64,000 bases of DNA from Bacteroidia bacterium. GTDB taxonomy: Bacteria; Bacteroidota; Bacteroidia; Bacteroidales; VadinHA17. The DNA is taken from NCBI GenBank assembly GCA_026391475.1, contig JAPLED010000087.1:31744-95743 (forward strand), given 5' to 3'. Positions 4,809-20,538 of this stretch are shown piece after piece (positions within the stretch are counted from its first letter, which is position 1; each line of letters opens with the position of its first letter). The translations under genes and the position numbers were made by a program. The notes beneath the pieces are model-generated. The model was not told where the DNA came from, did no database searches, and was given only the letters and a program-made list of their open reading frames with translations.

Positions 4809-4809
4809 A

Positions 4810-5526
4810 TTACATAAACTTCTCCCTCTTCTGAAGGTTGTATAAAGCTGCCAGAAGGAACACGATTGTTCCGGTAATCAGAACTATCCTGTTTTTAAGA
4901 GTAATGATTGCCCATGTTGTCTCATTTACATCACGTGGCAGGTTGAATGGGTTAAGGAACACGTTCCACTGGCTCTTACTCAATGGCGTACTAAGTATAA
5001 GGAATATCAGCCCGAATATTATCATGACGACAGCTGTTCCATTTCCATTTCTGATAACAGTTGAAAGCATAAAAGCCATTACACCAAGAAAAATAACAGG
5101 TAGCATCACCTGCAACGTCATATTTACAGTGCGGAATCTGACAATAAACACAGAAGACAACAGTGTGAAAGCTAGCATGATGATGAAAGCAATTATAAAT
5201 ATCAGCACTATTCTTACGAGCCAGACTTTGTACCTATAGTTAGGTATTCCAAATAATATTTCAATAGTTCTGGCATCCTGATCATTCTGAACGCCAAAGA
5301 CCGATGGATAAAAAACCAGAAGTATCCCTGAAAAGAGAAAAATTCCGTACATATCCTCCATCTTTGAAACGTCATTTGAGAACACATAAATTATTGAAAG
5401 TCCGACATAAAACAATATAGATCCGGTAAGAAACCAAATGAACTTATTTGCGAAGATAATTCGTAGATTATAAATGATCATCTTATAAATAATGATGATA
5501 TAATTATGTAAGTTTGTGCCTTTCAT
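4810..5526 (-). CDS. ABC-2-type integral membrane permease (about six TM helices), last gene of the efflux operon
   Basis: 238-aa hydrophobic ORF with about six predicted TM segments. It lies 24 nt downstream of the ORF carrying the fused ATPase domain. No sequence motif was recognised, so the call rests on topology and context. A start at M16 (5481) is possible. Confidence 0.55.
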   Translation of the reverse strand: MKGTNLHNYIIIIYKMIIYNLRIIFANKFIWFLTGSILFYVGLSIIYVFSNDVSKMEDMYGIFLFSGILLVFYPSVFGVQNDQDARTIEILFGIPNYRYKVWLVRIVLIFIIAFIIMLAFTLLSSVFIVRFRTVNMTLQVMLPVIFLGVMAFMLSTVIRNGNGTAVVMIIFGLIFLILSTPLSKSQWNVFLNPFNLPRDVNETTWAIITLKNRIVLITGTIVFLLAALYNLQKREKFM

Positions 5527-5550
5527 TTTATTAATATTAAACTGTTTATT

Positions 5551-8500
5551 TTAAGAAGCAGTTCTGACTTTCTTCCTGAGAATCCACAAATAAGCATCCT
5601 CAAGATTTGGAGTCACACTGACTGCGTCCTGATGTGGTTTATCTTCAGAAATACATCTTACTCTTACATTTTCTCCTTCGGACATGTGGTGTACCACTAA
5701 ATGACTTTCAATAAAACTGGCGAAGTCTTTTACAGGAATATTGAATTGCCAGACATGCTCTTCTGCCTCATTTGTCATGTCAATTGGTTTGCCAAGATAC
5801 ATCAGAATTCCTTTGTTCAGGACAGCGACCTGGTAGCAGGAGCTTGAGATATCCTCAATAATATGTGTGGAGAAGATGACCACTCTGTTGCGGCTAAGCT
5901 CCACAAGAAGGTTTCTGAACCTGATCCTTTCCCGGGGATCAAGACCGGCAGTAGGCTCATCAACAACGAGTATACGTGGCAGATGAAGAAGTATTTGAGC
6001 TATACCCATTCTTTGTTTCATTCCTCCTGAGTAAGAGCTTATTTTATCATGTCTGCGGTCCTCCATATGAACAGCATTCAGGCAGTATGTAACTCTTTCT
6101 TCTCTTATTTTAGCATCAGTGATGTTTTTAAGAATAGCCTGATAATGAAGATAATCATGAGCTGTCATATTTTCATAGCTTCCAAACTCCTGAGGAAGGT
6201 ATCCGATAAGTCCCTGAAGCTCTTCTCTCTTTTTTTGAGTGTCCATTCCATTTATCCATACCTTACCGTAGCTCTGTTCCAGGATGCCACAGATTATCCG
6301 CATAAGTGTCGTTTTACCTGCACCATTTGGCCCAAGAAGGCCAAACATACCGTTCCCGATATTCAGTGAGACACAACTTAAAGCTTTGAAAGGCTTTTTC
6401 TTTCTGCCTATCAATGGTATTGCTGCAACTATTTTATAGAAATTCTTACGGATATTTTTAAACCTGCCTTCGAGACGATAGATATCTATATTCTCTGAAC
6501 TCATTTTAATTCCTGTTCTGTATATAATAAGGCCGAAAAACCATAAGACTCCAAGTATAAGTACTATCGCAATGTTATGCCACCTTATCTGAAAGAGATA
6601 AATATTACCCAGTGGTATGATCCAGAATATCAGTGCATCAAGTATTCTTACAATCCCGGAATATATTTTCTTTTTTTCTGATGATGCAAAATTTGTCAGT
6701 AATTTTTTGAAAGGGATCCAGATGCCCAGAAGGGAAAACCATATACAGATACTGAATATAAAAATCCAGAAACCGCTTTTCAGATAAAAATATGTAAAAT
6801 AGATAACAAACCCGATCAATGGTATTTGCCAGGTCAGATGGTTCATATCTCTCCATGATGAAAAGTCCTTTTCAAGCCCAAGCCTTTCCCTTATTCTTAA
6901 GCCAGCTTTCCATTCCCGTGTAAGACGACTGCCTCTGTCATATATTTTGACAAGGCTCTGAACATAAATATTAATAGGTTCATCAGAAGAGATTACAGTC
7001 TCTCTTGCTTTTCTAAGTGTGTTGATAAAAAACCATGTGGCTGCCGGTACAATGATTAATGAGAGTATTGTTGTTATCAATTTCCAGAGGAATTGATCAA
7101 TATAGGTATATATCACAAGTATAAGTAAAGCTAATACGATGAATTGAATAACTTTTATTTTCAAGTTAAGTGAGTAGATCCATTGAAGTGAGTTTTCGAG
7201 GCCTGAGTAGAAAGTAGGAATAAAGATAAGTGTCAGCATTGTACTAAGAGTCAAACCTCCGATGACAGTAATTGCAAAAGCAGCACCAATGGTAGCAACA
7301 AATTCAGATTTTCCCATAGCCAGTGGAAAGAGGGCAATCACAGTTGTTGAGGCAGTGATCAGGATAGGTCTAACCCGCGCTATTCCTGCAGTCATTAAAG
7401 CGCGTGAACGTCTGTTGCCTCTCTTCCTTAAAATATTGGTATAATCAATAAGGAGAATTCCATTGTTTACCACCACACCGAGAAGTATTAGGAATCCGAT
7501 CAGAGTATTGGCATTTAGAAGAGAATTGTTTGTTAGAATAAGCGCAATAAGTGAACCTAATGCGGCAAGTGGTATGCTGAACATCAGGACCACCGGGGTG
7601 GAAAGTGATTCAAAAACTGAAGCAAGGATCATATAGATAAGGAGGAATGCCATCCCGATAAGGTAATAGAAATCTTTCAGCGGGTCCTCCTCATGAACGA
7701 CTTCGACTGCTATTCCTGAAGGTATATTGATATCTGAAACAATCGATTCTATTTCTGTTCTTGCACCTTCCAGCAGATCTTTGGAGCTAGTTATATCTGA
7801 ATTAAAACTATATGTAACTGTAATTTTTTTCTCACGGTTTTCCCTGTGTATGTTCCCCATACCAGATGAAAATACAACATTTGATAATTCCTGCATTTCC
7901 ATTAAATTGGAATTGCTACTTGTCACTTCGAGATGTTTAAGGTCATCGATTGTCTTGTTCGTATTTACCTTGATCTGACCTGATTCATCTGTATATTTCA
8001 GAGTGATATCATAGCTTTCGGTCCCCTGTAAAAAAGTTGCACCTGAGGAATATTCTCTCCCAAAAGTGGAAAGTGCTGAGGAAATATTATTCAGGGTGAA
8101 ATTATTACGTCCGATATAATCCATATCAAACTTTAAATGTACTTCAGGTGTATTATCCTGAACATTAACATTCACACTACTAATTGTTGACAGATCCTGA
8201 ATAGCTGCCTTAATATCATCTGAAAGGTTTTTCATCTGTTCGAAATTCTGTCCTTTTATGATAACACTTTCGCTTGTTGTTCCCATACCCAGAAGGTTCA
8301 TAAAGTTTGCCCCGGGATTTACCGCTCCTCCTCCTCCTCCTCCTGAGCCGGAATAACCCCCACCTGAAGAAATCTCATTCATGGTGATTTCTCCTGTCCT
8401 CATGTTTCTTACTTTTTCAAGAATGTCATTTTTAATTTCCGGAAGAGTCCTTTTGCTTGACTTATCCCATTTTTTAGCAAGATTTACAGTTAATGTTGCT

Positions 8501-10299
8501 TTTGCTTCCTCGATTCTGCTCACGATATCTTCTTTTTCCGGTACTCCACTAAGTCTTTGTTCAATTTGGGTAACGAATGCATCTGTTTTTTCAAGTGTCG
8601 ATCCGGAAGGCATTGTAACTGAAAGTCTGAAACTCGGAGTCTCAACTTCCTTTGTTGAACTGATACTTAAGGTCAGGCTGATAAGAAGTGCAGCGAAGAA
8701 CACAACGAGTGTGCCTATTATAGTACCTGCCGGGTTCCTCATACTGGCTTTGAGGGTAAGATAATAGGCCTGAATAAGCCGGTTATGTATCGAAAGCTTT
8801 TTAAAGATTCCTAAATCGGATCCCTTCGCTAATTTAAGAATAAAATGCGTTGCCATAGGGATAAAAAGAAGAGCAACGACCAATGAAATGACCAGGGTTG
8901 AGATTATAGAAACGCCAATATTCTTACCGATAATTTTGATCATGAAGTTGTCCGAGAAAATAAAGGGCAGGAAAACGGTTATAGTCGTAAGAGTTGCTGC
9001 AAAGATTGATCTCCATACCTCACTGGTTCCCTGCTTAACAGCAGTATCAATATCCTTTCCCTGACTTACAAGCCGGTAAATATTCTCAAGGACAACCACC
9101 GAATTGTCGACAAGCATACCAATGGCAAGAGCCATTCCAACAAGTGTAAGGCTGTTTATTGAGATATTATATGCATAGAAAAAGTTAAAGGCTGCATAAA
9201 CCGAGATAGGAATTGAAAGTGCAATTATAAAAACCAACCGGATATTACGTAAAAAGAACCACAATATAAGTACTGCAAGTATTCCTCCGATGACAGCCAG
9301 ATGAATTATCTCGTTTAAGTTGTTCTCCATGATTTCGGCATTATTGTTCTGGACAACTATTTCCACGCCTTCAGATTTCAGATTGTCGTTCAGCGTTTTA
9401 ACCACATTAAGGGTTTTGTGGGAAAGGTCGATCAGGTTAGCCTGATTATCATTTATAAGTGTAACTGTCACTGCATCGAGCCCATTGACCCGGCTATAGG
9501 AAGTTTGCTCTTTGACTCCAAAAATAATATCGGCAATGTCTTTCAGAGTCACAGACCCGTTTTGTTTTACAATAATATTTCCAATTTCGTTAACGTCAGT
9601 ATATTCAGATGTCACATTAACAAAAAGTTTATTGGTTCCTTCCTTCACCGATCCGACAAAGGTTTTATCCTTACCATTGTTGTTCAGAAGGTTTGTGACC
9701 TGTGCCATGGAAATCCCATATGCTTTGCAGGCTTTTTCATTAAGTCTGACCTCAATAGATTTTGCCTGACCACCGTACACCTGAACACCTGCTATACCAG
9801 TAATATTTTCAAGTTCAGGTGATATTTCCTTATCCGTTATGTTACGGATCCTGTCTATTCCTCCTTCACCTCTGATCTGTAATTCCATGAACTGGCTTGC
9901 AATCTGTGTGATATCAATTTTTACAACAGTAATTCTGAACTCAGCAGGCAACGTTGTTTTCACCAGGTTTATCTTTTCCTGCAGCTTCAGATTTGCATAT
10001 TTCATATTGGCATTCTGATTGTAATAAAGGATTATCGTCCCGGAACGGGAAGTAATGTTTGATTCAATCTTTTCAATGCCTTCAAGAGTACCAATAGCAC
10101 CTTCCAGGGGAATTATTGCCTGGTTTTCAATATAATTAGGATCTAACTCAAGAGGAGTAGAAACCTGAACAATGAGAGTCGGAAGTTGAGAATTAGGAAA
10201 AAGTTCAATCGGGAGTCTCTTATAGGAAATATAACCAAGCATTGTAAGCCCGATAAAGACCATACAGATCAGCACCTTTCTCTTTATAATGAAATTCAT
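5551..10299 (-). CDS. Fusion protein: RND (AcrB/HAE-type) efflux permease, about six extra TM helices, and a C-terminal ABC transporter ATP-binding domain
   Basis: Residues 1 to about 1040 are collinear with the neighbouring 1040-aa RND permease. They share the N-terminal TM, two large periplasmic loops, and motifs such as LVGMALAIGMLVDNSVVVLENI and VVNNGILLIDY. The C-terminal ~290 residues carry Walker A GPNGAGKTT, Q-loop LPQEF, signature SGGMKQR, Walker B ILVVDEPTAGLD and H-loop STHII. One uninterrupted 4749-nt frame. Confidence 0.85.
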   Translation of the reverse strand: MNFIIKRKVLICMVFIGLTMLGYISYKRLPIELFPNSQLPTLIVQVSTPLELDPNYIENQAIIPLEGAIGTLEGIEKIESNITSRSGTIILYYNQNANMKYANLKLQEKINLVKTTLPAEFRITVVKIDITQIASQFMELQIRGEGGIDRIRNITDKEISPELENITGIAGVQVYGGQAKSIEVRLNEKACKAYGISMAQVTNLLNNNGKDKTFVGSVKEGTNKLFVNVTSEYTDVNEIGNIIVKQNGSVTLKDIADIIFGVKEQTSYSRVNGLDAVTVTLINDNQANLIDLSHKTLNVVKTLNDNLKSEGVEIVVQNNNAEIMENNLNEIIHLAVIGGILAVLILWFFLRNIRLVFIIALSIPISVYAAFNFFYAYNISINSLTLVGMALAIGMLVDNSVVVLENIYRLVSQGKDIDTAVKQGTSEVWRSIFAATLTTITVFLPFIFSDNFMIKIIGKNIGVSIISTLVISLVVALLFIPMATHFILKLAKGSDLGIFKKLSIHNRLIQAYYLTLKASMRNPAGTIIGTLVVFFAALLISLTLSISSTKEVETPSFRLSVTMPSGSTLEKTDAFVTQIEQRLSGVPEKEDIVSRIEEAKATLTVNLAKKWDKSSKRTLPEIKNDILEKVRNMRTGEITMNEISSGGGYSGSGGGGGGAVNPGANFMNLLGMGTTSESVIIKGQNFEQMKNLSDDIKAAIQDLSTISSVNVNVQDNTPEVHLKFDMDYIGRNNFTLNNISSALSTFGREYSSGATFLQGTESYDITLKYTDESGQIKVNTNKTIDDLKHLEVTSSNSNLMEMQELSNVVFSSGMGNIHRENREKKITVTYSFNSDITSSKDLLEGARTEIESIVSDINIPSGIAVEVVHEEDPLKDFYYLIGMAFLLIYMILASVFESLSTPVVLMFSIPLAALGSLIALILTNNSLLNANTLIGFLILLGVVVNNGILLIDYTNILRKRGNRRSRALMTAGIARVRPILITASTTVIALFPLAMGKSEFVATIGAAFAITVIGGLTLSTMLTLIFIPTFYSGLENSLQWIYSLNLKIKVIQFIVLALLILVIYTYIDQFLWKLITTILSLIIVPAATWFFINTLRKARETVISSDEPINIYVQSLVKIYDRGSRLTREWKAGLRIRERLGLEKDFSSWRDMNHLTWQIPLIGFVIYFTYFYLKSGFWIFIFSICIWFSLLGIWIPFKKLLTNFASSEKKKIYSGIVRILDALIFWIIPLGNIYLFQIRWHNIAIVLILGVLWFFGLIIYRTGIKMSSENIDIYRLEGRFKNIRKNFYKIVAAIPLIGRKKKPFKALSCVSLNIGNGMFGLLGPNGAGKTTLMRIICGILEQSYGKVWINGMDTQKKREELQGLIGYLPQEFGSYENMTAHDYLHYQAILKNITDAKIREERVTYCLNAVHMEDRRHDKISSYSGGMKQRMGIAQILLHLPRILVVDEPTAGLDPRERIRFRNLLVELSRNRVVIFSTHIIEDISSSCYQVAVLNKGILMYLGKPIDMTNEAEEHVWQFNIPVKDFASFIESHLVVHHMSEGENVRVRCISEDKPHQDAVSVTPNLEDAYLWILRKKVRTAS

Positions 10300-10331: not shown

Positions 10332-13300
10332 CTATTCATTCACTGGCTTTTTCCTGGTGATTTTGTCACTGAAGGAATCAAAAACCCAATAAACACATGG
10401 TATCACTATCAAGGTGAGGATAGTTGACGTAACCAGTCCTCCAATCACCGCAAGCGCCATCGGAGATCTGAGTGATGCACTTTCGCCGATGCCGATTGTA
10501 AGTGGAATAAGCGCAAATATTGTTGTAAGACTTGTCATTAAAATAGGTCTGATTCTCTGTGATCCTGCAGTAATTATTGAGTCTTTTTTGTTTAATCCGG
10601 TCCGGCGTAATTGGTTTATACGATCAATAAGAATAATTGCATTACTCACAGCAATCCCTCCAAGCATAATGATGCCAATGTATGCCATCATATTGAGGGT
10701 TTTTCCCAACAGGAAAAATGTCAGAATGGTACCGACTGCAGCAAGAGGTATTGTTAATAAAATAACAAAAGGTTGAATTATTGATTCAAATTCAGCTGCC
10801 AGAACCATAAATACCAGGATAATTGACAGAATCAGTGCAAATGTCAGGTTAGACATTGATTCTTTTCTCATTAGCTCTTCACCTGTTATTTGAATCCTGT
10901 AGTTAGCTGGCAATGGAACTGATTTCAGCGATTCTCTAGCATCTTTTACGATCTTGTCAAAGGGTTTGGATTTATTAACCATAGCATATATATAGCTTGT
11001 CCGGCTCTGATCTCGCCGGGTAATTTCCCTGGGGGATATAACTGTTTTGACAGTAGCTAACGAACTCAATGGTACCTTTACCGATCCTGCTGTAATCAGG
11101 AGATCTTCAAGTTGATGAAGTGAAAGATCTCCGAGCTTAATGGTTATGTCCTTCATCTCACCATCCTTTTCCATTGTGCCTGCAGTAGCGCCAGAGAGAT
11201 AACTTTGTATCTGACTGATTACATTATTTACCGAAACATTATAATAACTAGTCTTAAACCTGTCAACAGCTACTTCAACTTCCGGAGTTCCCTGGTCAAG
11301 GGAAGTTGTAATATTATAAAGACCACTGTTATTCTGAAGCACTTCTTTTGATTCATTAATTATCTTTTCAATCTCGGTAAAGTCTTTCCCTTTTACCTCA
11401 ACAACAAATGGGGCTTCGCTGGTTCCCAGAGAAGCTTGCAGCGCTGTTTCTTCCTGGGAAAAGCTTACATCAAGGTCAGGAATCGTCTTAAGGTATTTCT
11501 CAACAGTTCTGATAGCTTCTTCTGTCAGATATGCATATTCATTTTTCAGAAATACTTTAATGTTTGCAAAATTCTCATTTTTGGAAGTTGCAGATTGGGT
11601 GGTTGTATTTATATCCCCACCTGCCTGACTGTAAATCATCCTGATTTTGTCACCAAGAAGTTCATTGATAGTTCCTTCAATTTTTTGGATTGTACTTTGA
11701 GTACGTTCAAGATTTGTCCCTTCCGGAAGTTTCAATCCTACAGTAAATTCAGATGAAGATGATTTTGGCATATACTCACTTCCAAGTTTTGGTATGAGAA
11801 GTACGGTCAACCCCATAAATACAATAGACAGAATGATCACAATCAATCTCTTTTCGATGATTTTTGAAAGAAACTTTGGATACCATCTGAATTGCATTGG
11901 GCTGCTAAGTTGAACATTTTGTCCTTTCTTCTCACGAAAAAGAGTACTTACCAGCATTGGAATGACGAGCATTGCAACAAATAAAGATGAGATCAGAGCA
12001 AAAGCTACTGTCCAGGCCTGGTCTTTGAACATTTCACCGGAAGCTCCTCTTAGATACACTATAGGAAGGAAGACAACTATTGTTGTGATTGTAGAAGCCG
12101 TAATGGCTCCTCCGACCTGCCCGGTACCAATAATTGCTGCATCGCGCAATGACATTCCTTCATCTCTGTTTCTGGTAATATTTTCAAGGACAACAATTGC
12201 ATCATCAACCAGCCTGCCGGCCCCGAGCGCCAGCCCTCCCAAAGTCATTATATTTAATGTCAGGTGATTGAAATACATTAGGTTGAATGTTGCTATTATG
12301 GAAATAGGTATGGCAACACTGACCACCATTGTGGTACCTATCCTTCGGAGGAAAACATATAAAACAATCATTGCAAGGAAAATTCCAATAAGCCCGGAAT
12401 TCTTTACCTCTTTAATGGCATTGTCAATATATTTTCCCTGATCCTTTACAACTATGAATTCATATCCAGGGAGAGCTTTTGTAAGAGTGCCCAGAGCATC
12501 GTTAAGGTTGTTAACGGCGTCAACGGTATTATATTTGGGTTCTTTGTAAATTGACAGGCCTATGCAGCGTTCACCATTAAGTGTGATAATATTTTCAGGA
12601 TCTTTATTTTTATATTTTATGGTTGCAACATCGCGAAGATAAATTGGAACTTTTTCTATTGAGGTAGCGGTCGTGCCCGAAGCTGCAGTCGTACCTGCCT
12701 GGGAGGACTGTTTGAATCCGACAACTATGTTCTCAAGATCTGTTAAATTTTCCAGGACACTTACACCTTTGACCACATATTTAAGACCCAGATCAACAAT
12801 AGAACCTCCTGATACATTTTTGTTATAATTTGTTATCTGTGCAGCAATAGCGTCAGCGCTCAATCCGAAAGATTCAAGTATATATTTATTGGTTTCAATT
12901 ACAACTTCGCTCTCTTCCTGACCAGTTAGTTTCACATCAGCTATGCCTTCAATTCTGACTAGTTCGTTTCGGATATAGTTTTCTGCAACTTTCCTTAATT
13001 CATCCATGTCAGTAATTTCCTTGTTCCTCAATCCCACAATCATAACGGGTGAAGCATTAGGATCGTATTGAGAAATATTAAACTCCTGGAGGTCCGAGTT
13101 CTGACTGAATGAGTTTAATGCCTTCTGCAAGTCGAGAAATGCCTCGTCCATATCTTTGTTCCAGCTATATTCGACTGTTATCAGTGCTGAACCGACCTGG
13201 GAGACTGAGGATACCTGGATGACATCACTCTGTCGCATGGAAAGCGATTCTATCTGATCAACATAATTTTTCTCGATTTCTTCCGGTGGTTTTTCCCCGG

Positions 13301-13454
13301 CAGTGAATTCAATATATATCTTCGGATTGTTCAGGTTTGGGAAGAGATCAGTTCCCAGTTTTCCTAGAGATATAACTCCAAGAAGAATAATGCCGAGTAC
13401 CAACATTAGAACTGTAACCGGGTATTTTACAGCAAATTGGGCAATCCTGTTCAT
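10332..13454 (-). CDS. Efflux RND transporter permease subunit (AcrB/CzcA superfamily)
   Basis: 1040 aa with a 12-TM architecture and two large periplasmic loops. Conserved TM4-type motif GGLALGAGRLVDDAIVVLENI. It follows the MFP gene directly. Confidence 0.92.
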   Translation of the reverse strand: MNRIAQFAVKYPVTVLMLVLGIILLGVISLGKLGTDLFPNLNNPKIYIEFTAGEKPPEEIEKNYVDQIESLSMRQSDVIQVSSVSQVGSALITVEYSWNKDMDEAFLDLQKALNSFSQNSDLQEFNISQYDPNASPVMIVGLRNKEITDMDELRKVAENYIRNELVRIEGIADVKLTGQEESEVVIETNKYILESFGLSADAIAAQITNYNKNVSGGSIVDLGLKYVVKGVSVLENLTDLENIVVGFKQSSQAGTTAASGTTATSIEKVPIYLRDVATIKYKNKDPENIITLNGERCIGLSIYKEPKYNTVDAVNNLNDALGTLTKALPGYEFIVVKDQGKYIDNAIKEVKNSGLIGIFLAMIVLYVFLRRIGTTMVVSVAIPISIIATFNLMYFNHLTLNIMTLGGLALGAGRLVDDAIVVLENITRNRDEGMSLRDAAIIGTGQVGGAITASTITTIVVFLPIVYLRGASGEMFKDQAWTVAFALISSLFVAMLVIPMLVSTLFREKKGQNVQLSSPMQFRWYPKFLSKIIEKRLIVIILSIVFMGLTVLLIPKLGSEYMPKSSSSEFTVGLKLPEGTNLERTQSTIQKIEGTINELLGDKIRMIYSQAGGDINTTTQSATSKNENFANIKVFLKNEYAYLTEEAIRTVEKYLKTIPDLDVSFSQEETALQASLGTSEAPFVVEVKGKDFTEIEKIINESKEVLQNNSGLYNITTSLDQGTPEVEVAVDRFKTSYYNVSVNNVISQIQSYLSGATAGTMEKDGEMKDITIKLGDLSLHQLEDLLITAGSVKVPLSSLATVKTVISPREITRRDQSRTSYIYAMVNKSKPFDKIVKDARESLKSVPLPANYRIQITGEELMRKESMSNLTFALILSIILVFMVLAAEFESIIQPFVILLTIPLAAVGTILTFFLLGKTLNMMAYIGIIMLGGIAVSNAIILIDRINQLRRTGLNKKDSIITAGSQRIRPILMTSLTTIFALIPLTIGIGESASLRSPMALAVIGGLVTSTILTLIVIPCVYWVFDSFSDKITRKKPVNE

Positions 13455-13459
13455 GATTT

Positions 13460-14515
13460 TTATTTAATAATTTTAACCTTTGACCTGGTGCTTAGTGTTT
13501 CAAAACCACCGATTACGACACGGTCATTCTTTAGCAAACCTCCTGTTACCTCAACATCAGTCAGATTTTCAAGACCAGTCCGGATTATCCGTTCAGAAGC
13601 CGTCCCGCCGCGTTCGATGACGAAGATCGTTTTGCCTCTTTGCCGTGAGAGGATTATACTTTTAGGTATTACAATAACAGAGTCTTTATGGTTTATTACA
13701 ATATCAGCTTTGACATACATACCCGGCCTTAGAAGATAATTTGGATTATGGATCAGGATATTTCCCGGGAAAGTTCGTGTATCGGCATTTATCGCAGGGG
13801 ATAGTTGCGTTATATTCCCGATTATGGTGTCCTTGGGAATAGTATAATTGGTTAACTTGACTGCCTGGCCAGGTTTTATTATTGAGATATATTTTTCAGG
13901 CAACTGTACATTCATATACATCATCTGGTAATCCATTATTTCGACAATAATTGAACCTGTATTTGCCCTGGTCCCCTGGGTATAATAAGGTAAATTAACT
14001 ATGACCCCGTCGATAGGAGCAATAATCCTGGTCTTTGCCATCTGAAGCTTCGCGTTTTCCACAGCTGTTTTAGCATTCGCGTTATTAATACTTGCTGTTT
14101 TAATATCATTAAGCGTAACCCCTCCCTTTTCATATAATGATTGCTGTTTTGTGAGCTCACTCTCTGTGAGTTCGAGATTAAGCTGACTGGTTTCAAGTTT
14201 AAGAGAATTAACATATTCCTGATCCTCTAATCTGGCTATGAGATCGCCGGTTCTGACTTTATCATTCAGCTGCCATGCTTTTCCCGTATGTGGATTTTTT
14301 TCAAGAAAATAATTGGCTGTAATCTCCGATTTTACCAGAATCTCACCTATCGGATAAGCTGTTCCTGATGTGTTAACATATTCTTCAATTGACTTAAGAG
14401 TAACATCCTGCACAGAAACAGGAATTTCAACATCAGCATTAAGATTCTGATTCTGGTTCCTGCAGCTAATGGCCACGAAAACAGTTGCTAGTATTATGAA
14501 TAAACTTTTTTTCAT
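13460..14515 (-). CDS. Efflux RND transporter periplasmic adaptor (membrane fusion protein, HlyD family) lipoprotein
   Basis: 351 aa with lipobox VAISC. Coiled-coil hairpin region (LKLETSQLNLELTESELTKQQSLYEKGGVTLNDIKTA) and beta-barrel segments typical of MFPs. Confidence 0.9.
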   Translation of the reverse strand: MKKSLFIILATVFVAISCRNQNQNLNADVEIPVSVQDVTLKSIEEYVNTSGTAYPIGEILVKSEITANYFLEKNPHTGKAWQLNDKVRTGDLIARLEDQEYVNSLKLETSQLNLELTESELTKQQSLYEKGGVTLNDIKTASINNANAKTAVENAKLQMAKTRIIAPIDGVIVNLPYYTQGTRANTGSIIVEIMDYQMMYMNVQLPEKYISIIKPGQAVKLTNYTIPKDTIIGNITQLSPAINADTRTFPGNILIHNPNYLLRPGMYVKADIVINHKDSVIVIPKSIILSRQRGKTIFVIERGGTASERIIRTGLENLTDVEVTGGLLKNDRVVIGGFETLSTRSKVKIIK

Positions 14516-14528
14516 ATATGATTTATTT

Positions 14529-16022
14529 TTAATATTTTAAGGTCTTAATCGGAATGACCGGTTGTTTCTTTTCAAAGTCGTAAAGTGCCTGTATTTTAAG
14601 ATTCAGGAGTTCAAGCTTATAAGATATTAAAGAATTTGTGTAAGAAAGCTTGTTTTGCGAGAGCTGGTTCTGATAAATACTCAGATCCATACCTGTCAGG
14701 TCTCCGTTTTTATACTTTTCAAGATTTAAGTCGTAAGTTAGTTGTGCATTATTGACCGACTGACGTGCGATTTCTATCTGGTTTTGGAGATTATTAAGAC
14801 TTCTGTAACTCTGTCTTATACTTAAAATTATATCGTTCTGTTCTACCCCGAGATCAATTTTGTTTGACTCAATTGATGCTTCAGTTGACTTTATTCTTGA
14901 TTTTTTTTCTCCCCAATCCCAGAGTGGGATTTGAAAAGACAATGCGACATTTTCATTGTTTTTTGGATCTGTATAAATATCTTTAAGGTTTTTATTATTC
15001 CCGTTAATTCCAAAAGAAAGGCCAAGGTTTCCCTTGAATTCATTAAGCGCCTTAGTCTGAATAAGATCATCATATGATGTTTCAATAGCTATCTGTCTTT
15101 GCCTCAATTCCATCCTGTTTGCGAGCCCCTGATCAATAGCAAATGCTATATCGATCTTTACTGTTGTATCAACTGCTATGTTTGGTATTACAAGAATATC
15201 GTCATATAGGTTTATACCAACCATGTTCTTAAAGGCATCCTTGGAATTTTCAAAAGCCACCTGCTTGTTTTCATAATCCGACTTGGTTGTCGCAAGGTTC
15301 AACTCAGCCTGAAATATTTCTGACTGAGCTGAAATTCCTGCATTAACTTTATTCTTCGAGATTTCATAGCTTTTCTGCATATTCTGATAAGCCTGGTTTG
15401 AAATATCCAGGCTTTGTTGCTGCTGATAAACAGTGTAAAATGCCTGGGTAACACTCTTTTCCATAGACAGGAGCTGAATGGCATAGTTAATCTGAGCATT
15501 CTCAAGTGACAGTTTAAGTTCTTTAATGGTGAGCTTGGTCCTGTTATAGGTGAACAGAGGCTGATTAAGGTTAATAGAAAGATCATTATTAAATTTTATT
15601 CCTTCTTGAGTTGGGAATTGTTCATTTAAAATGGTATTGGTATAACTAAAATTGTCAGTCAGAGAAATAGTTGCATCTGTAGGTAGAATAGGCTGTTTAA
15701 TTGTAAATGAACCTGAGCTCTGTAAACTCTTTGTAGTGTTAAAACCAGAATTAGTATAATACGCCCTGTTTTGAGAATAATTTAAAGGATTTACCAATAA
15801 AGAAAAATTTGATTTTAATGCAGCATTCTGAGCATTAAGATTTTCCTGGCTCCTTATAAGGTTAAGCCTTGTTTTTAATATAGTCGGACTATTTGATTCA
15901 GCTATAGTGAGAGCTTGTTCCATTGTAAGTCCTTTTTGTGCTGATACATTGTTAAAAATAAGGTTCACCAAGAGGAAGACTGACGGATAAATCCATTTAA
16001 ATATTATGAATTTCTTTTTCAT
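14529..16022 (-). CDS. TolC-family outer membrane efflux protein
   Basis: 497 aa with a signal peptide. It has a two-fold internal repeat of long helical segments rich in N/Q/L/S, as in OEP/TolC proteins. Operon position is next to the MFP. Confidence 0.85.
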   Translation of the reverse strand: MKKKFIIFKWIYPSVFLLVNLIFNNVSAQKGLTMEQALTIAESNSPTILKTRLNLIRSQENLNAQNAALKSNFSLLVNPLNYSQNRAYYTNSGFNTTKSLQSSGSFTIKQPILPTDATISLTDNFSYTNTILNEQFPTQEGIKFNNDLSINLNQPLFTYNRTKLTIKELKLSLENAQINYAIQLLSMEKSVTQAFYTVYQQQQSLDISNQAYQNMQKSYEISKNKVNAGISAQSEIFQAELNLATTKSDYENKQVAFENSKDAFKNMVGINLYDDILVIPNIAVDTTVKIDIAFAIDQGLANRMELRQRQIAIETSYDDLIQTKALNEFKGNLGLSFGINGNNKNLKDIYTDPKNNENVALSFQIPLWDWGEKKSRIKSTEASIESNKIDLGVEQNDIILSIRQSYRSLNNLQNQIEIARQSVNNAQLTYDLNLEKYKNGDLTGMDLSIYQNQLSQNKLSYTNSLISYKLELLNLKIQALYDFEKKQPVIPIKTLKY

Positions 16023-16068: not shown

Positions 16069-19000
16069 TCACTTCTGTCTCACCCATTTTATTGCGTCTC
16101 CAATCACAGCCCTTCCTGTTGAAAGATTTGAAAGAATAACTTTCGCTGTGTCGGCCGCAAGGTAATATGTACCCAGTTTGTTCCAGCCACTCTCGGCATT
16201 TATATAATCAAGAGATATATCTTCAATCCCGCCGTCATGAGAAATGCGGAAATGGAATTCTTTGTAAGGTTCAGAAAGCTGTCCTCTTCCACCTGTTCCC
16301 TGGCCTCCGGCCCTACCCGGTCCAGGTGCTCCTCCCGTTCCTCCGCCTCCTCCTGTTCTGCCACCTCCGGTTCTGGCCCCACCACCACCTCCGGTTCTGG
16401 CAGCTCCACCGCCCATTACCATCATCCTGTCGGTAGTTTTACCGACATAACAGAAAATATCATAATAACCTGGTATGTTTATAACAGTAGCCCATGTTAC
16501 TGTTTTATCCCCGATGCCACTTTTGGTGTAGACTGCTGAGCGAATATATTTTCCAAAATATAATGATTGGACAGCAGGTTGCCAGTATGCGGGAATCCTC
16601 ATAAGACTTATTTGTTGATAAGTACTTCCGTTTTTGTTTTGAATTCCAAGAAGTTTTTTCAATCTGTTCACAGTATTTTGTTTGCTGATTTTGAAACCTG
16701 GATCCTCATTATCAACTATTATTTCAGTTGAATCAGAAGAAGAAGGATCATATGAAATAATTTCTTCACCTGAGAATTCGCTGATAATACTTTTTGATTT
16801 AATTATTTTATCAATTGGTAATGTGATCTCACCGGGAATGTTTTTTGCAAAGAGAGTATTTATCATCATTGTTCTTGGCTGGGCATCGAGGACAATACCA
16901 ACTCTTTTTGTCTCATCAGGTCCTAAGTAAACAATTTTCGAAATATCGGCAGCTTCCATACCACGCCCCTGGGAAGATATCTGCATCCTTCCGCCACCCC
17001 CTGCAAAACCGCCACCACCTCCGAAGCCGCCACCACCTCCTTCACCACGAGCGCCACCTCCGCTTCCACGTCCTCCTCCTGCACCACCGGTACGAAATGA
17101 TACATTAAATAACCCACCTGCAGCTTCCGGATTGGATGCAATAAAAGTAACCTGATATCTTGATCTGTCGCCGATTACAATTTCGGTTGCCTCCAAATGT
17201 GCAAACAGGAATCCGGGTTGTTCCTTACCGTTGAACCAATCATACAGATAAGGATAAAATTCGAAACCGAACTTATTTTTAATATCATTATTGAAATTTT
17301 TAATGTCGACTCTTTTAAACCGATGATCATCAATATATTTGACAAACCAATCCTTAAATTCATCAATCCCTGCTTTTGACCTGATCAGGTTAAAAAAATT
17401 ATCACCCTTGATGGTCAAAACAGTGTTCAAAGTATCGCCACCCGGATTTTTTGCAAGCATGTCTTTAAAACTCTGGTTTTTCAGGATGAGATTGGCAATG
17501 TCATTTTCAGTAAGATTGCCAGCCATTGCCTGCAAACCAGCTCTGCCGGGAGAATTAACTTTTTGAAGATGAGCTTCAAAAACAGCATTAATAACCGGAT
17601 ATTCTGAAGAGTAAAAATTATTCTTGAAAAAGTAAAAGCTTGGACCCAAAAGATACCTTGTCGGTTCATTTACAACAACCCCGTTCACAAACCTGAAATT
17701 CTCACCACTGATAAAAGTGCTCCTCATGAAATTATTGAAAATCCTGACATGTAGCTCTTTGTCTGTAATAACCTGTCCATTGCGTGTCATCCTTTTCTTC
17801 TGCTGTTGGAATTGCTTATAGAAACCGGCCTGGTTCAGCGTAGAAAGTCTTTCGGGAAGTAGAACCATTGATGGTTGCACTTCTGCCCGGGTTTGAGTGT
17901 TTTCCTTAGGGTAAGAATAAAATTGCACCGGTACCTCAATCAGACTAAGAGTTTCGAAAGGATATTTTGTTGAAAAGTTAGTTTCAAGATCTCTCATGAG
18001 ACCCGAAATAAGTAAAGGTATAGTGTCTTTTATCGCTTCGAGGTCTTTTATATAATAATCGTTCCCGGGGAAATGATAGGAAATATATTCGACGGAATCA
18101 ACCTTAATTTTGTTGGTCAGATAATTACCTATTGCAAGTGTCAGACCTGTCAGCGGAGATTTCGGTTTATATATATAGTATCCATTTTCTTTGCTCATTT
18201 TGCCCTGGGAAATAGCTACCAGATTATTCTCTGCTTTTACTTTAAGAGAATAATTAGTAAAATCAATCTTTATCTGAGCTGGATTGGATGGGTAGTAATT
18301 GAGGCCGGCAACAGGATACCAGTGAGTCTCAGGAGTAAGCAACACATAGTCCCTGGTAAGGAAGGCCTGCCGCTTATTCACATTAACCATTGCAATTCTA
18401 TATGGATTCTCATTGATATTATCACTATAATTTGGATAACAAAATGATTCATTGATACTTCCTGAATACACAAACTCAATGTTATCACTCTTTCCGGGAG
18501 TAAGGATTTTTTCCGGGTTTATTTCGATTATATGATTTATTCTTTTGAATTTCAGATCTTTTCCACCGGAAGATATTTTTGTTACTGACAATGAAGGATT
18601 AAGGGAAAAGTAATATTGACTAATTGGTTCATTATTATCATTTAAAATTGTCAGAGCTGCGGTTGCCTCAAATGACTTTCCTTTATGAATAAATTCTATA
18701 GATGCATCAGTTACGGTAGCAAATTTTTTATTTTCAAACTCTTTGTTTGTTTTTATTACCAGTTTTTTATCAATAACCCCTTTTCTGTAAGTGGAGTAGG
18801 TATTTAAAGTACAGATTACCGATCCTCCCAGAAAAACGAACAAGAATATTATGGTCAGGATTCTATGAACTTTAGATTGTGGTAATCGTTTAAATAACAA
18901 AATTGTTGCCATGATCAGGGAAAGTCCTGAAAAAAGATAAATAAGTCTTTGATTGATTATAACACTTAAATTATCAAACCCGATTATGCCTGATTTGAAA

Positions 19001-19629: not shown

Positions 19630-19644
19630 TAGCGTTTTTTATCG

Positions 19645-20538
19645 TTAGTCAATTAAAGTTGTATGTAATTTATGCTCCATGTAATATACATAGGCATGCT
19701 CAATGTCAGGATCAATGCTGATTGCATTATAATCAGGGACATCATCCGACACAACCTGAACTTCCCAGCCTGTCTCATTGGGTATTGTAGAAATAACATT
19801 GTAAATTTCTTTTACCTTTTCATATTCATATGGGGTCAGATTAAGTTTGAATACATGGCCTTCAGCATGTTTAACCAGGTTCTCGGGAGAACCATAGTAA
19901 ACTAATTCTCCCCTGTCAAGCAGGGCCATTCCCTGGCAGGTAGAAGAAATATCCCCAACAATATGAGTCGACAGAATAATAATTACATCATGCTGGCTTA
20001 GCTGGGAAAGTACATTTCTGAATTTAATCCTCTCGTCAGGATCCAGTCCTGTAGTGGGTTCATCGACAATTATAATCTTTGGATTACCAATGAGAGCCTG
20101 TGCAATACCCAGCCGGCGCTTCATGCCACCCGATAACTTGTTGGCCCGCCTGTCGCGCGCTTCAAGAAGCCCGACCTGATCAAGTAATCTGTCAACCTCT
20201 GCCATTCTTTCCTTTCTGTTTTTCAATCCGGCAAGAGACCCTGCATAATCCAGGAACTCCCAGGTCTTAAGGGCAGTAAAAAATCTGAAATCCTGGGGAA
20301 GATACCCAAGAATACTTCTTAGTTCTTTTCTGTGTTTTTGAATATCTTTGCCATTTACCATTACCAATCCTGATGTAGGTTTCATCAGGGTTACAAGTAT
20401 GCGCATAAGACTTGATTTGCCTGCTCCGTTTGGACCCAGCAGACCAAACATACCGGTACCGAATTCAAGATTGATGTTCTTCAGGGCATGATTGCCATTT
20501 GGATATACTTGATTAAGATTCTGAATTTCAATTTTCAT
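19645..20538 (-). CDS. ABC transporter ATP-binding protein (ABC-2/DrrA-like), first gene of the operon
   Basis: Walker A GPNGAGKSS, Q-loop LPQDF, signature SGGMKRR, Walker B IIIVDEPTTGLD and H-loop STHIV. It lies 15 nt upstream of the permease fusion gene. Confidence 0.93.
   Translation of the reverse strand: MKIEIQNLNQVYPNGNHALKNINLEFGTGMFGLLGPNGAGKSSLMRILVTLMKPTSGLVMVNGKDIQKHRKELRSILGYLPQDFRFFTALKTWEFLDYAGSLAGLKNRKERMAEVDRLLDQVGLLEARDRRANKLSGGMKRRLGIAQALIGNPKIIIVDEPTTGLDPDERIKFRNVLSQLSQHDVIIILSTHIVGDISSTCQGMALLDRGELVYYGSPENLVKHAEGHVFKLNLTPYEYEKVKEIYNVISTIPNETGWEVQVVSDDVPDYNAISIDPDIEHAYVYYMEHKLHTTLID

What the first reader, a model, noticed from the sequence alone, without database searches (positions are those of the whole stretch)
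5551..10299. One ORF fuses a complete RND permease to a complete ABC ATPase domain through about six extra TM helices
RND pumps are proton-motive-force antiporters and ABC transporters are ATP driven. I do not know of a characterised protein that joins the two.

What the sequence shows:
- A single 4749-nt frame encodes an AcrB-like permease (about nt 7180-10299), collinear with the adjacent 1040-aa paralogue.
- Next come two TM helices, a short cytosolic segment (EPINIYVQSLVKIYDRGS) that looks like an ABC beta-1 strand, and four more TM helices (about nt 6505-7179).
- The frame ends in an NBD (about nt 5551-6504) with every catalytic motif intact: GPNGAGKTT, LPQEF, SGGMKQR, ILVVDEPTAGLD and STHII.

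The TM count is even. An RND C-terminus is cytoplasmic, so the NBD stays in the cytoplasm. This topological consistency and the intact motifs argue for a selected fusion rather than a lost stop codon. It suggests ATP-coupled or ATP-gated RND transport, or physical tethering of an ABC exporter to an RND/TolC conduit.
Basis: partly seen in the sequence, partly recalled or inferred. Interest (0 to 1): 0.85.

Follow-up and report, generated by a model that had tools for sequence, protein, structure and literature searches.

The report
RND efflux pump fused to ABC ATPase
One conserved 1,582-residue membrane protein joins a complete RND efflux-pump subunit (normally proton-driven) to a complete ATP-hydrolysing ABC domain. 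I found no description of this hybrid in the literature, it occurs across Bacteroidota and related phyla, and it may link two energy sources in one export machine.

Summary
ORF 5551-10299 (-) encodes a full-length RND permease (aa 1-1032), six extra TM helices and an ABC nucleotide-binding domain (NBD) with all catalytic motifs.

**It is not a lost stop codon.**
- Independent assemblies reproduce the junction at 100% identity.
- 25 of 31 related species-representative genomes carry an intact ORF of about 1580 aa.
- Fourteen deeply diverged full-length clusters have the same layout. They include Ca. Latescibacterota and KSB1.
- The cultured Tangfeifania diversioriginum, and a contig carrying the identical Maribellus comscasis 238-aa permease, also have it.
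- The ATPase motifs are invariant or nearly so in 40 aligned members. dN/dS is 0.03-0.16 in all three parts.

**New findings.**
- The NBD's first strand and A-loop tyrosine lie upstream of a four-TM insertion, which replaces a 5-residue turn in the operon's free paralogous ATPase.
- The 238-aa downstream protein is a type V (ABC-2) permease and always follows the fusion.
- The core cassette is adaptor, RND, RND::NBD, ABC-2 permease. An outer-membrane factor precedes it in Bacteroidota. A second ABC-2 pair lies upstream in Bacteroidales and Latescibacterota.

**Best reading.** A type V ABC exporter is covalently tethered to a heteromeric RND tripartite pump. How energy is coupled is unknown. 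Six full-text searches found no description.

The parts
5551..10299 (-). Whole fusion gene, 1582 aa: RND permease, 2 TM helices, NBD strand beta-1, 4 TM helices, rest of the NBD, C-terminal domain
   Evidence: ORF list and translation. Pfam ACR_tran plus ABC_tran. Conserved as one ORF in relatives.
7204..10299 (-). Complete RND permease domain (aa 1-1032), 12 TM helices and two periplasmic loops. TM4 reads LVDN, TM10 reads VVNN, TM11 reads RVRPILIT.
   Evidence: Pfam covers profile 3-1018 of 1021. NCBIfam RND_permease_2 scores 444 bits, below its 1250-bit cut-off. Best PDB sequence matches are ZneA 4k0e and MdtB 9lyq. Motif conservation.
7003..7164 (-). Two extra TM helices (aa 1046-1066 and 1070-1099) that leave the cytoplasm after RND TM12 and return to it
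   Evidence: Hydropathy. AF2 helices 14-34 and 38-67 of the 550-aa model.
6934..6981 (-). NBD strand beta-1 with the A-loop aromatic residue (EPINIYVQSLVKIYDR; Y1121), separated from the rest of the NBD
   Evidence: AF2 strand at aa 1111-1120. Same I-x-I-x-x-L-x-x-x-Y pattern as beta-1 of the free paralogue, MKIEIQNLNQVY. I1111 and K1118 are invariant and L1116, I1119 and Y1120 nearly so in 40 members.
6883..6927 (-). Conserved amphipathic helix RLTREWKAGLRIRER after beta-1 (R, E and W nearly invariant)
   Evidence: AF2 helix 93-107. Conservation.
6493..6828 (-). Four-TM insertion (aa 1158-1269) lying between beta-1 and beta-2 of the NBD
   Evidence: AF2 helices 126-140, 144-173, 178-208 and 211-237. 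Hydropathy and positive-inside count. The free paralogue has only a 5-residue turn here. No homologue of this linker exists outside the fusion family.
5800..6390 (-). NBD core from beta-2 onwards, with Walker A (6307-6333), Q-loop (6184-6198), signature (6010-6030), Walker B plus catalytic Glu and D-loop (5938-5973) and H-loop (5857-5871)
   Evidence: Pfam ABC_tran. Closest NCBIfam families are GldA and DrrA. PDB matches are ABCA, TM_1403 and NosF. Motifs invariant or nearly so in 40 members. Coordinates checked.
5554..5799 (-). C-terminal beta-rich domain of the ATPase (aa 1501-1582), as found in ABC-2-type ATPases
   Evidence: AF2 strands 484-518. Foldseek aligns 285-302 columns to TM_1403 (4yer) and NosF (7osf, 7o0y). 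It aligns with the C-terminus of the free ATPase.
4810..5526 (-). 238-aa type V (ABC-2) permease, the presumed membrane partner of the fused NBD. Layout: N-terminal interface helix, 6 TM helices, and a short helix at aa 85-92 inside the conserved motif NDxDxRTIEILFGIP.
   Evidence: Always directly downstream of the fusion. hhalign gives 99.2% probability (E 9e-20) to the Latescibacterota orthologue, which passes Pfam ABC2_membrane_2 (32.8 bits against a 27.2 cut-off). AF2 pLDDT 81.6. All of the top 18 Foldseek hits, and 20 of the top 21, are type V transmembrane domains: PmtD, NosY, ABCG25, ABCG2, ABCG5/8.
10332..13454 (-). Partner RND permease, 1040 aa, unfused paralogue
   Evidence: Pfam ACR_tran E 2e-211. 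26% identical to the fused RND. Always directly upstream of the fusion.
13460..14515 (-). Periplasmic adaptor (membrane fusion protein), 351 aa
   Evidence: Pfam HlyD_D23 and HlyD_3. NCBIfam RND_mfp scores 176 bits against a 94.9 cut-off. Syntenic.
14529..16022 (-). Outer-membrane factor (TolC family), 497 aa
   Evidence: Pfam OEP E 4e-42. Syntenic in Bacteroidota. Absent from the Latescibacterota and KSB1 loci.
16069..19629 (-). 1186-aa membrane protein with about 7 N-terminal TM helices, a degenerate M1-peptidase-like region and a Golvesin_C domain. It is linked to the cassette; a role in it is not shown.
   Evidence: Pfam Golvesin_C. Orthologous to the Latescibacterota 1124-aa neighbour (E 3e-61), whose N-terminus weakly hits GldF. 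Lies upstream of the outer-membrane factor in 22 Bacteroidales loci. No HExxH or GxMEN motif.
19645..20538 (-). Free ABC-2-type ATPase, 297 aa, paralogue of the fused NBD and first gene of the run
   Evidence: Pfam ABC_tran E 3e-32. NCBIfam best matches DrrA and GldA. 41% identical to the fused NBD over 277 aa, E 1e-79. An orthologue sits in the same position in Latescibacterota.

Best explanation
**What it is (confidence about 0.95).** This is a genuine, selected fusion protein. It is the fourth gene of a conserved envelope-export cassette. The core, in order, is periplasmic adaptor, RND permease, RND::ABC fusion, type V ABC permease. An outer-membrane factor precedes it in Bacteroidota. A second ABC-2 ATPase/permease pair lies further upstream in Bacteroidales and Latescibacterota.

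**How it most likely works (inferred; the 0.4 below refers to this part).**
1. The C-terminal NBD is an active ATPase of the ABC-2 class.
2. It dimerises and docks on the short cytoplasmic helix of the 238-aa permease, giving a type V ABC exporter core, (NBD)2(permease)2.
3. Eighteen TM helices (12 RND plus 6 extra) hold this core covalently against the RND pump.
4. The RND part assembles with its unfused paralogue into a heterotrimer. Two fused subunits plus one free subunit would reconcile three-fold RND symmetry with a two-fold NBD dimer.
5. The ABC module moves a membrane-embedded or cytoplasmic substrate to the outer leaflet or periplasm at the cost of ATP.
6. The RND/adaptor/outer-membrane-factor conduit then expels it. 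The result is a two-step relay within one complex.

**Shown here:** the architecture, the topology, intact and conserved catalytic motifs, the split beta-1 with its four-TM insertion, the fold and family of the 238-aa permease, and strict gene linkage.

**Inferred only:** ATP hydrolysis, the NBD-permease contact, the subunit stoichiometry, substrate hand-over, and the substrate itself (unknown).
For: **The fusion is real**
- Complete RND and ABC domains sit in one ORF.
- Independent assemblies reproduce the junction.
- The ORF is intact in 25 of 31 related genomes. Three others are cut by contig ends and three are interrupted.

**It is old and widespread**
- The linker has homologues only inside proteins of 1550-1585 aa with the same layout. 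There are 102 hits among 1.84 billion representatives, 14 of them full-length clusters.
- Source names include Rikenellaceae, Ca. Latescibacterota and KSB1.
- The cassette is present in the Tangfeifania diversioriginum assembly. It is also on a contig that carries the identical Maribellus comscasis 238-aa protein.

**The ATPase is under selection**
- Walker A, Q-loop, signature, Walker B with the catalytic Glu, and H-loop are invariant or nearly so in 40 members (at most 3 deviating sequences at any core catalytic position). Their RND parts share only 33-59% identity with the window protein.
- The NBD is the best-conserved part, at 60-78% identity.
- dN/dS is 0.03-0.075 for the NBD, 0.10-0.16 for the linker and 0.06-0.09 for the RND part.

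**The NBD class matches the permease class**
- The NBD is of the ABC-2 type: GldA and DrrA by NCBIfam, TM_1403 and NosF by fold.
- It is 41% identical to the operon's free ATPase.
- The 238-aa protein is a type V permease.
- It follows the fusion in every locus examined, in the usual ATPase-then-permease gene order.

**Topology and partners**
- The number of extra helices is even, and K+R counts are 27 inside against 2 outside.
- Two RND paralogues are always adjacent. MdtB and MdtC, the known heteromeric RND pair, are among their closest characterised matches.
Against: - Nothing computed here shows contact between the NBD and the 238-aa permease. Nothing shows NBD dimerisation or a 2:1 heterotrimer either.
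- The free ATPase and the 1186-aa protein could instead be partners of the fused NBD or of the 238-aa permease. They are absent from the KSB1 locus, and their presence in Prolixibacteraceae could not be checked.
- Three tethers hold the NBD to the membrane. Whether that geometry allows canonical docking on a coupling helix is unknown, because model coordinates could not be inspected.
- The window's own 238-aa protein does not reach Pfam significance (E 0.25).
- Its Foldseek E-values are weak (7e-3 to 0.8), although probabilities are 0.96-1.0 and TM-scores 0.50-0.61.
- The substrate is unknown.
Confidence: 0.4

Rival explanations
1. Co-assembly only. The fusion ensures that an ABC-2 exporter and an RND pump are made and placed together, for example at a fixed ratio or at one envelope site. 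The two transport cycles stay energetically and mechanistically independent, and there is no direct substrate hand-over.
For: - Both modules look self-sufficient: a complete RND with its adaptor and outer-membrane factor, and a complete NBD with its own type V permease.
- The linker is the least conserved part, at 23-44% identity among distant members. Its helices have no recognisable transporter homology.
Against: - Co-expression in one operon would already give co-production. A covalent link kept across at least three phyla suggests more than co-localisation.
- So does a four-TM insertion inside the NBD.
- The linker is still under purifying selection, with dN/dS 0.10-0.16.
Confidence: 0.2
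2. ATP-gated RND pump. The RND heteromer remains driven by the proton-motive force. The NBD acts as a nucleotide-dependent switch, through the six extra helices packed against the RND transmembrane domain, that permits or blocks RND cycling according to cellular ATP. The 238-aa protein would be an accessory of this switch.
For: - The NBD is joined to the RND transmembrane domain by helices that directly follow TM12.
Against: - Regulatory or degenerate NBDs usually lose catalytic residues. Here the catalytic Glu and the H-loop His are invariant in 40 members.
- The strictly linked type V permease has a conserved short cytoplasmic helix in the position of a coupling helix. That points to a transporting ABC module rather than a sensor.
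Confidence: 0.15
3. ATP-driven RND. ATP hydrolysis, not the proton gradient, powers the periplasmic pumping movements of the fused RND subunit. This would resemble the way MacB transmits NBD movements to its periplasmic domain.
For: - The fused RND lacks two residues of the AcrB proton-relay set. The equivalent of D408 is Asn and that of K940 is Asn, both essentially invariant in the family. The equivalents of D407, R971 and T978 are kept.
Against: - The unfused partner RND has the same VDN and VN(N/D) pattern in most lineages. The window's clade, with VDD and VSN, is the exception. The deviation is therefore a trait of this RND clade, not a consequence of the fusion.
- One TM4 Asp and the TM11 Arg remain.
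- No mechanical path from the NBD to the RND periplasmic domain is evident.
Confidence: 0.15
4. Artefact or decay. The long ORF results from a lost stop codon, a misassembly joining two genes, or a pseudogene in which the ABC part is no longer used.
For: - Three of 31 related loci have an interrupted frame.
- Long contigs L001 and L002 show the gene in pieces.
- One 2.4-kb contig (L045) has an in-frame stop just before the linker.
Against: - The junction is identical in independent assemblies.
- The ORF is intact in 25 genomes and in 14 distant clusters.
- dN/dS is far below 1 everywhere, and the catalytic motifs are invariant or nearly so.
- In L001 and L002 the neighbouring genes are fragmented in the same way. 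That points to indel errors in those assemblies.
Confidence: 0.01

Closest known systems
MdtABC-TolC (heteromeric RND tripartite pump of Enterobacteria)
   Same: - Two paralogous RND permease genes lie side by side behind one adaptor gene.
- MdtB and MdtC are among the best characterised matches of both RND parts.
- The 2021 review describes MdtBC as a rare RND heterotrimer (PMC8277102).
   Different: - No Mdt subunit carries extra TM helices or an NBD.
- Identity is low: NCBIfam scores of 253-361 bits are far below the equivalog cut-offs of 1584-1774.
- Heteromer formation was not tested here.
MacAB-TolC (ABC-driven tripartite pump, type VII ABC)
   Same: - An ABC ATPase works with a periplasmic adaptor and an outer-membrane factor across the Gram-negative envelope.
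- The NBD is fused to membrane helices in one polypeptide (PMC8277102).
   Different: - MacB has its NBD at the N-terminus, four TM helices and its own periplasmic domain, and no RND domain.
- The NBD here is of the ABC-2 class (GldA, DrrA, NosF-like) and sits at the C-terminus of an RND permease.
Type V (ABC-2) exporters with separate subunits: NosDFY, PmtCD, GldAFG, DrrAB, ABCG and ABCA
   Same: - The fused NBD plus its C-terminal domain resembles NosF and TM_1403. By sequence it resembles GldA and DrrA.
- The 238-aa permease model matches PmtD, NosY, ABCG25 and ABCG2 transmembrane domains.
- Gene order is ATPase then permease.
   Different: - In these systems the ATPase is a free soluble subunit, or in ABCG it is fused to its own transmembrane domain.
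- None is fused to an RND permease, and none has TM helices inserted between beta-1 and beta-2.
CFTR NBD1 regulatory insertion
   Same: It is an insertion at the same structural site, between strands beta-1 and beta-2 of an ABC NBD. This rests on my own knowledge of CFTR structures and was not tested here.
   Different: The CFTR insertion is about 30 disordered soluble residues. Here the insertion is about 180 residues, with an amphipathic helix and four TM helices.

Membership tests
RND permease superfamily (Pfam ACR_tran) | Full-length 12-TM architecture with two large periplasmic loops, matching the family profile end to end | tested here: met
   ACR_tran over aa 2-1032, profile 3-1018 of 1021, E 4e-160. 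Collinear with the 1040-aa paralogue. PDB sequence matches to ZneA, MdtB, AdeB-like pumps, CmeB, MexB and AcrB.
HAE-1 type RND (AcrB/MexB) | Proton-relay set: two adjacent Asp in TM4 (AcrB D407, D408), Lys in TM10 (K940), Arg and Thr in TM11 (R971, T978) | tested here: not met
   TM4 reads LVDN, TM10 reads VVNN and TM11 reads RVRPILIT. The equivalents of D408 and K940 are Asn, essentially invariant in 40 members. Partner RNDs mostly show the same pattern. AcrB residue numbering is from my own knowledge. NCBIfam scores are below all RND equivalog and subfamily cut-offs.
ABC ATPase (Pfam ABC_tran) | Walker A, Q-loop, LSGGQ-type signature, Walker B followed by the catalytic Glu, D-loop, H-loop His, A-loop aromatic residue | tested here: met
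   GPNGAGKTT, LPQEF, SGGMKQR, ILVVDEPTAGLD and STHII are present and invariant or nearly so in 40 members. The aromatic residue Y1120 in ...KIY (Y in 39 of 40 members) lies on the beta-1 segment. Pfam E 4e-28. Fold matches to many NBD structures.
ABC ATPase | ATP hydrolysis and dimerisation of the NBD | not testable with these tools
   Needs biochemistry or a multimer model. Only conservation of the catalytic residues speaks for it.
ABC-2 / type V ABC exporter (the NBD plus the 238-aa permease) | Permease with an N-terminal interface helix, six TM helices, and a short cytoplasmic helix between TM2 and TM3 within an E-x-E-x-x-T-x-E-type motif; matches ABC2_membrane profiles or type V structures | tested here: met
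   - Window protein: Pfam ABC2_membrane_3 only at E 0.25.
- Its Latescibacterota orthologue (hhalign 99.2%, E 9e-20) passes ABC2_membrane_2 at 32.8 bits against a 27.2 cut-off.
- The AF2 model has this helix layout.
- All of the top 18 Foldseek PDB hits, and 20 of the top 21, are type V transmembrane domains, with TM-scores 0.50-0.61.
- The conserved motif is NDxDxRTIEILFGIP.
ABC-2 / type V ABC exporter | Physical pairing of this NBD with this permease | not testable with these tools
   Only strict adjacency in every locus.
MacB-type (type VII) tripartite ABC pump | N-terminal NBD, four TM helices of the FtsX type and a periplasmic domain between TM1 and TM2 | tested here: not met
   There is no FtsX/MacB_PCD Pfam hit on the fusion or on the 238-aa protein. 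The closest NBD families are GldA and DrrA, not MacB or LolD.
Heteromeric RND pump (MdtBC type) | Two RND paralogues encoded together | tested here: met
   The 1040-aa RND lies directly upstream of the fusion in all loci that reach it.
Heteromeric RND pump (MdtBC type) | The two paralogues form one heterotrimer | not testable with these tools
   Needs co-purification, a structure or a multimer model.

The most novel reading that the evidence does not exclude
A dual-energised envelope exporter. A 2:1 RND heterotrimer carries a built-in type V ABC transporter, so that ATP hydrolysis and the proton gradient act on the same substrate path within one covalently linked complex. ATP would either load the RND pump from the inner leaflet or cytoplasm, or directly drive or gate its cycle. 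This would be the first natural transporter to combine primary and secondary active transport modules in one polypeptide. It would also be the first NBD with TM helices inserted into its beta-1/beta-2 hairpin.
Probability: 0.35. Interest if true: 0.9.

Novelty: new variant of a known kind. Interest (0 to 1): 0.75.

Why it matters
**Why a specialist would care**
- RND pumps and ABC transporters are the two main engines of Gram-negative efflux. They are treated as alternatives with different energy sources.
- A conserved natural protein that joins them covalently, with a partner RND, an adaptor, an outer-membrane factor and a dedicated ABC-2 permease, raises a concrete and testable question. Can ATP-driven and proton-driven transport be coupled in one machine, and if so, how?

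**Open problems it touches**
- How cytoplasmic or inner-leaflet substrates reach RND pumps, which capture substrates from the periplasm or outer leaflet.
- How a three-fold symmetric pump can cooperate with a two-fold symmetric ATPase.

**The four-TM insertion**
- I know of no precedent for TM helices inserted inside an ABC NBD. It shows that the beta-1/beta-2 hairpin tolerates a membrane anchor.

**Tractability**
- The system occurs in cultured Prolixibacteraceae (Tangfeifania diversioriginum and, by the identical 238-aa permease, Maribellus comscasis). Genetics, biochemistry and cryo-EM are feasible.

Tried and rejected
1. **Lost stop or misassembly.** Rejected. Independent assemblies and dozens of intact orthologues agree.
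2. **A dead proton relay specific to the fused subunit.** I first saw D408N and K940N in the fusion against DD in the window's partner RND. Most partner RNDs carry the same VDN / VN(N/D) pattern, so the argument does not discriminate and was dropped.
3. **The six extra helices as a cryptic ABC transmembrane domain.** There was no Pfam hit at E up to 10. The only homologues are inside the fusion family. hhalign against the 238-aa permease family gave under 2% probability. Foldseek hits of the 550-aa model were driven by the NBD alone.
4. **Free-standing 'linker + NBD' proteins as an ancestral form.** Only P0155 (526 aa) is a candidate. It sits 64 nt from the end of a 2.4-kb contig with an in-frame stop upstream, so it remains undecided.
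5. **A profile of the 238-aa family against PDB sequences.** This gave only chance hits. The fold search was needed instead.
6. **Fragmentary hits in the first homologue search.** All hits were under 950 aa, which made the family look fragmentary. Loci L001 and L002 showed that long-contig cases are genes broken by frameshifts. That database also seems to lack longer proteins; full-length members came.
7. **A riboswitch or other RNA element upstream of the operon as a clue to the substrate.** None was found. The sigma-70 and terminator scan was uninformative.
8. **Fetching DNA further upstream in Tangfeifania.** This was meant to test for the free ATPase and the 1186-aa gene.
9. **A PDB sequence search with the 1186-aa protein.** It returned only a weak M1-aminopeptidase hit and glycine-linker artefacts.


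Full report
**1. Observation**

The minus strand carries one ORF from 10299 to 5551, encoding 1582 aa.
- Pfam places a full-length ACR_tran domain on aa 2-1032 (profile 3-1018 of 1021, E 4e-160). It places ABC_tran on aa 1312-1451 (E 4e-28).
- The RND part aligns end to end with the neighbouring 1040-aa RND (26% identity, E 3e-90).
- Between the two domains, hydropathy and an AlphaFold2 model of aa 1033-1582 agree on six TM helices. That model has mean pLDDT 78.6 and was built from 49 sequences.
- Two helices follow RND TM12 (aa 1046-1066 and 1070-1099). Four more lie at aa 1158-1269.
- Predicted cytoplasmic loops carry 27 Lys+Arg and predicted periplasmic loops carry 2. AcrB-type RND proteins end in the cytoplasm (established knowledge), so the NBD is cytoplasmic.

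**2. Not an artefact**

- Contigs assembled independently from other sequencing runs match window 4728-7526 (100%) and 4728-7191 (99.96%) without gaps. They cover the RND/linker junction.
- A scan of one genome per species returned 31 related loci, all Bacteroidales-type MAGs at 58-88% identity. In 25 the frame is open for 1576-1622 aa. Three are cut by contig ends and three are interrupted.
- Shorter 'proteins' on long contigs (L001, L002) come from assemblies in which neighbouring genes are fragmented too.
- dN/dS against six relatives is 0.06-0.09 for the RND part, 0.10-0.16 for the linker and 0.03-0.075 for the NBD.

**3. Spread**

- The 278-aa linker alone was searched against 1.84 billion representative proteins. 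It has only 102 relatives (71 at E below 1e-10).
- All 14 full-length relatives are 1550-1585 aa, with the linker at about residues 1022-1303. The linker therefore exists only in this fusion.
- Source names place members in several taxa:
  - Bacteroidales, Odoribacter, Rikenellaceae, Prolixibacteraceae and Draconibacterium
  - Ca. Latescibacterota and candidate division KSB1
- All of these belong to the Fibrobacterota-Chlorobiota-Bacteroidota group.
- The whole cassette is present in the Tangfeifania diversioriginum assembly GCA_900141875.1. It is also on a contig carrying the identical Maribellus comscasis 238-aa protein, and on a 6.1-Mb contig.
- In an alignment of 40 full-length members, the Walker A, Q-loop, signature, Walker B with catalytic Glu, and H-loop positions are invariant or nearly so.
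- The NBD is the best-conserved part: 60-78% identity where the RND part has 33-59% and the linker 23-44%.

**4. Anatomy of the ABC part**

- The NBD belongs to the ABC-2 class. The best NCBIfam families are GldA and DrrA. The best PDB sequences are ABCA, TM0544, TM_1403 and NosF.
- The model, including its C-terminal beta-rich domain, matches TM_1403 and NosF.
- The operon's first gene (19645-20538) is a free 297-aa ATPase. It is 41% identical to the fused NBD from beta-2 to the C-terminus (E 1e-79).
- Its N-terminus reads MKIEIQNLNQVY-PNGNH-ALKNINLEFGTGMFGLLGPNGAGKS: beta-1, a five-residue turn, then beta-2.
- The fusion has the same beta-1 pattern (INIYVQSLVKIY). It is modelled as a strand, and the aromatic A-loop residue is conserved.
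- About 180 residues, comprising an amphipathic helix and four TM helices, separate this strand from beta-2 (KPFKALSCVSLNIGNGMFGLLGPNGAGKTT).
- The NBD is thus split by a membrane insertion and held to the membrane by three connections.
- Model coordinates could not be inspected. Pairing of beta-1 with the NBD sheet is inferred from the strand assignment and from the paralogue alignment.

**5. The 238-aa protein**

- It has no significant Pfam or NCBIfam hit of its own.
- Its family profile aligns over 232 columns with the Latescibacterota neighbour (hhalign 99.2%, E 9e-20). That neighbour passes the Pfam ABC2_membrane_2 threshold (32.8 bits against 27.2).
- An AlphaFold2 model (pLDDT 81.6, pTM 0.79, 59 sequences) gives this layout:
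  - an N-terminal interface helix
  - six TM helices
  - a short helix at aa 85-92, between TM2 and TM3, inside the invariant motif NDxDxRTIEILFGIP
- All of the top 18 Foldseek PDB hits, and 20 of the top 21, are type V ABC transmembrane domains: PmtD, NosY, ABCG25, ABCG2 and ABCG5/8. TM-scores are 0.50-0.61 and probabilities 0.96-1.0, with weak E-values.
- The gene follows the fusion in every locus seen.

**6. Gene context**

- Seven tightly spaced genes on the minus strand run from 20538 to 4810: free ATPase, 1186-aa membrane protein, outer-membrane factor, adaptor, RND, fusion, permease. Gaps are 5-46 nt.
- The five genes from the outer-membrane factor to the permease are syntenic in the Bacteroidales loci that reach them.
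- The 1186-aa gene lies upstream in all 22 loci that reach it.
- The Latescibacterota locus has free ATPase, 1124-aa orthologue (E 3e-61), adaptor, RND, fusion and permease, without an outer-membrane factor.
- The KSB1 locus has only adaptor, RND, fusion and permease.
- The core is therefore adaptor, RND, fusion, permease.
- In Bacteroidales the cassette sits between lpxD-side genes and rimP-nusA. It is chromosomal core, not a mobile element.

**7. Mechanism**

The evidence best fits a type V ABC exporter (fused NBD plus 238-aa permease) tethered to an RND tripartite pump.
- The reasons are the ATPase-then-permease gene order, the matching classes of NBD and permease, the invariant catalytic residues, and the strict linkage.
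- A constant second RND paralogue invites a 2:1 heterotrimer as the answer to the three-fold versus two-fold symmetry problem. MdtBC is a known heterotrimer (PMC8277102).
- A plausible function is a relay. ATP-driven extraction or flipping of a membrane or cytoplasmic substrate would be followed by RND-mediated expulsion.
- These steps are inferred. I give this reading about 0.4.
- The rivals are co-assembly without coupling (0.2), ATP gating of a proton-driven pump (0.15) and ATP-driven RND movement (0.15).
- The last rival drew on the altered relay residues (TM4 VDN, TM10 VNN). Partner RNDs mostly share them, so this is a clade trait.

**8. Comparison with the known, and novelty**

- Each module belongs to a known superfamily (see the membership table). 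The RND part does not meet the HAE-1 relay definition or any NCBIfam cut-off.
- I found no described system with an RND permease and an ABC NBD in one polypeptide, and none with TM helices inserted in an NBD.
- Six full-text searches returned nothing relevant, including exact phrases such as 'RND-ABC' and 'ATP-dependent RND'. The 2021 Chemical Reviews survey of tripartite systems mentions no such fusion in the part held.
- Databases hold the sequences under names such as 'efflux RND transporter permease subunit' or 'hypothetical protein'.
- Two limits apply. Subscription literature was not searched, and no domain-architecture database was available.
- I class it as a new variant of known kinds, close to the border of something categorically new if energetic coupling is shown.

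Noticed in passing
window 16069-20538 (-): The two genes at the head of the same gene run are a free ABC-2-type ATPase (297 aa) and a 1186-aa protein. The latter has about 7 N-terminal TM helices, a degenerate M1-peptidase-like region without HExxH or GxMEN, and a C-terminal Golvesin_C domain. The same pair precedes the RND cassette in Ca. Latescibacterota (L039). It may belong to the machine or be a second, linked ABC-2 system.
   Followed up: partly
window 8284-8370 (-) (fusion aa 644-672) and 16960-17094 (-) (1186-aa protein): Both proteins carry glycine-rich low-complexity loops in their predicted periplasmic parts: SSGGGYSGSGGGGGGAVNPG and GGAGGGRGSGGGARGEGGGGGFGGGGGFAGGGG. In the fused RND the loop is Gly/Ser-rich in most family members and is followed by a conserved hLGhG motif. 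The unfused paralogue lacks it.
   Followed up: partly
window 9100-9140 and 7460-7500 (-) (TM4 and TM10 of the fused RND); partner RND 10332-13454: Both RND paralogues of this clade deviate from the AcrB proton-relay set: TM4 is VDN and TM10 is VN(N/D) in most lineages. Only the window's close relatives have VDD and VSN in the partner. How these pumps couple to protons is unclear.
   Followed up: partly
L045:1-130: A 2.4-kb contig (GCA_028748505.1) encodes a 526-aa 'linker + NBD' protein followed by the permease. An in-frame stop lies just upstream, in a stretch (…LEFSN*QVCW…) that resembles the RND/linker boundary. It may be a naturally split version, a pseudogene or a sequencing error.
   Followed up: partly
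L043:4842-5222 (Tangfeifania diversioriginum): A 126-aa PDDEXK_3-family gene sits between the partner RND gene and the fusion gene in this isolate, interrupting the otherwise tight cassette.
   Followed up: no
L002, L041, L043, L050 downstream of the permease: In the Prolixibacteraceae-type loci a Peptidase_U32 gene (419 aa) follows the cassette. In Bacteroidales the convergent radical-SAM gene, rimP and nusA follow instead.
   Followed up: no
L001 and L002 (ENA ERZ25039461, ERZ25039483): On these long contigs the RND genes and the fusion are called as strings of short ORFs, which looks like indel errors of the assembly. The large protein database used returned no member longer than about 950 aa, so full-length fusions appear to be missing from it.
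   Followed up: partly
window 11238-11266 (-): A perfect sigma-70 consensus (TTGACA, 17 nt, TATAAT; 12 of 12) lies inside the coding region of the partner RND gene. It is probably chance, and this promoter type is not typical of Bacteroidota.
   Followed up: no
window 3756-4808 (+) and 4810 (-): A radical-SAM/4Fe-4S family gene converges on the permease gene, with the two stop codons only about 1 nt apart. The arrangement is conserved in many Bacteroidales loci.
   Followed up: no
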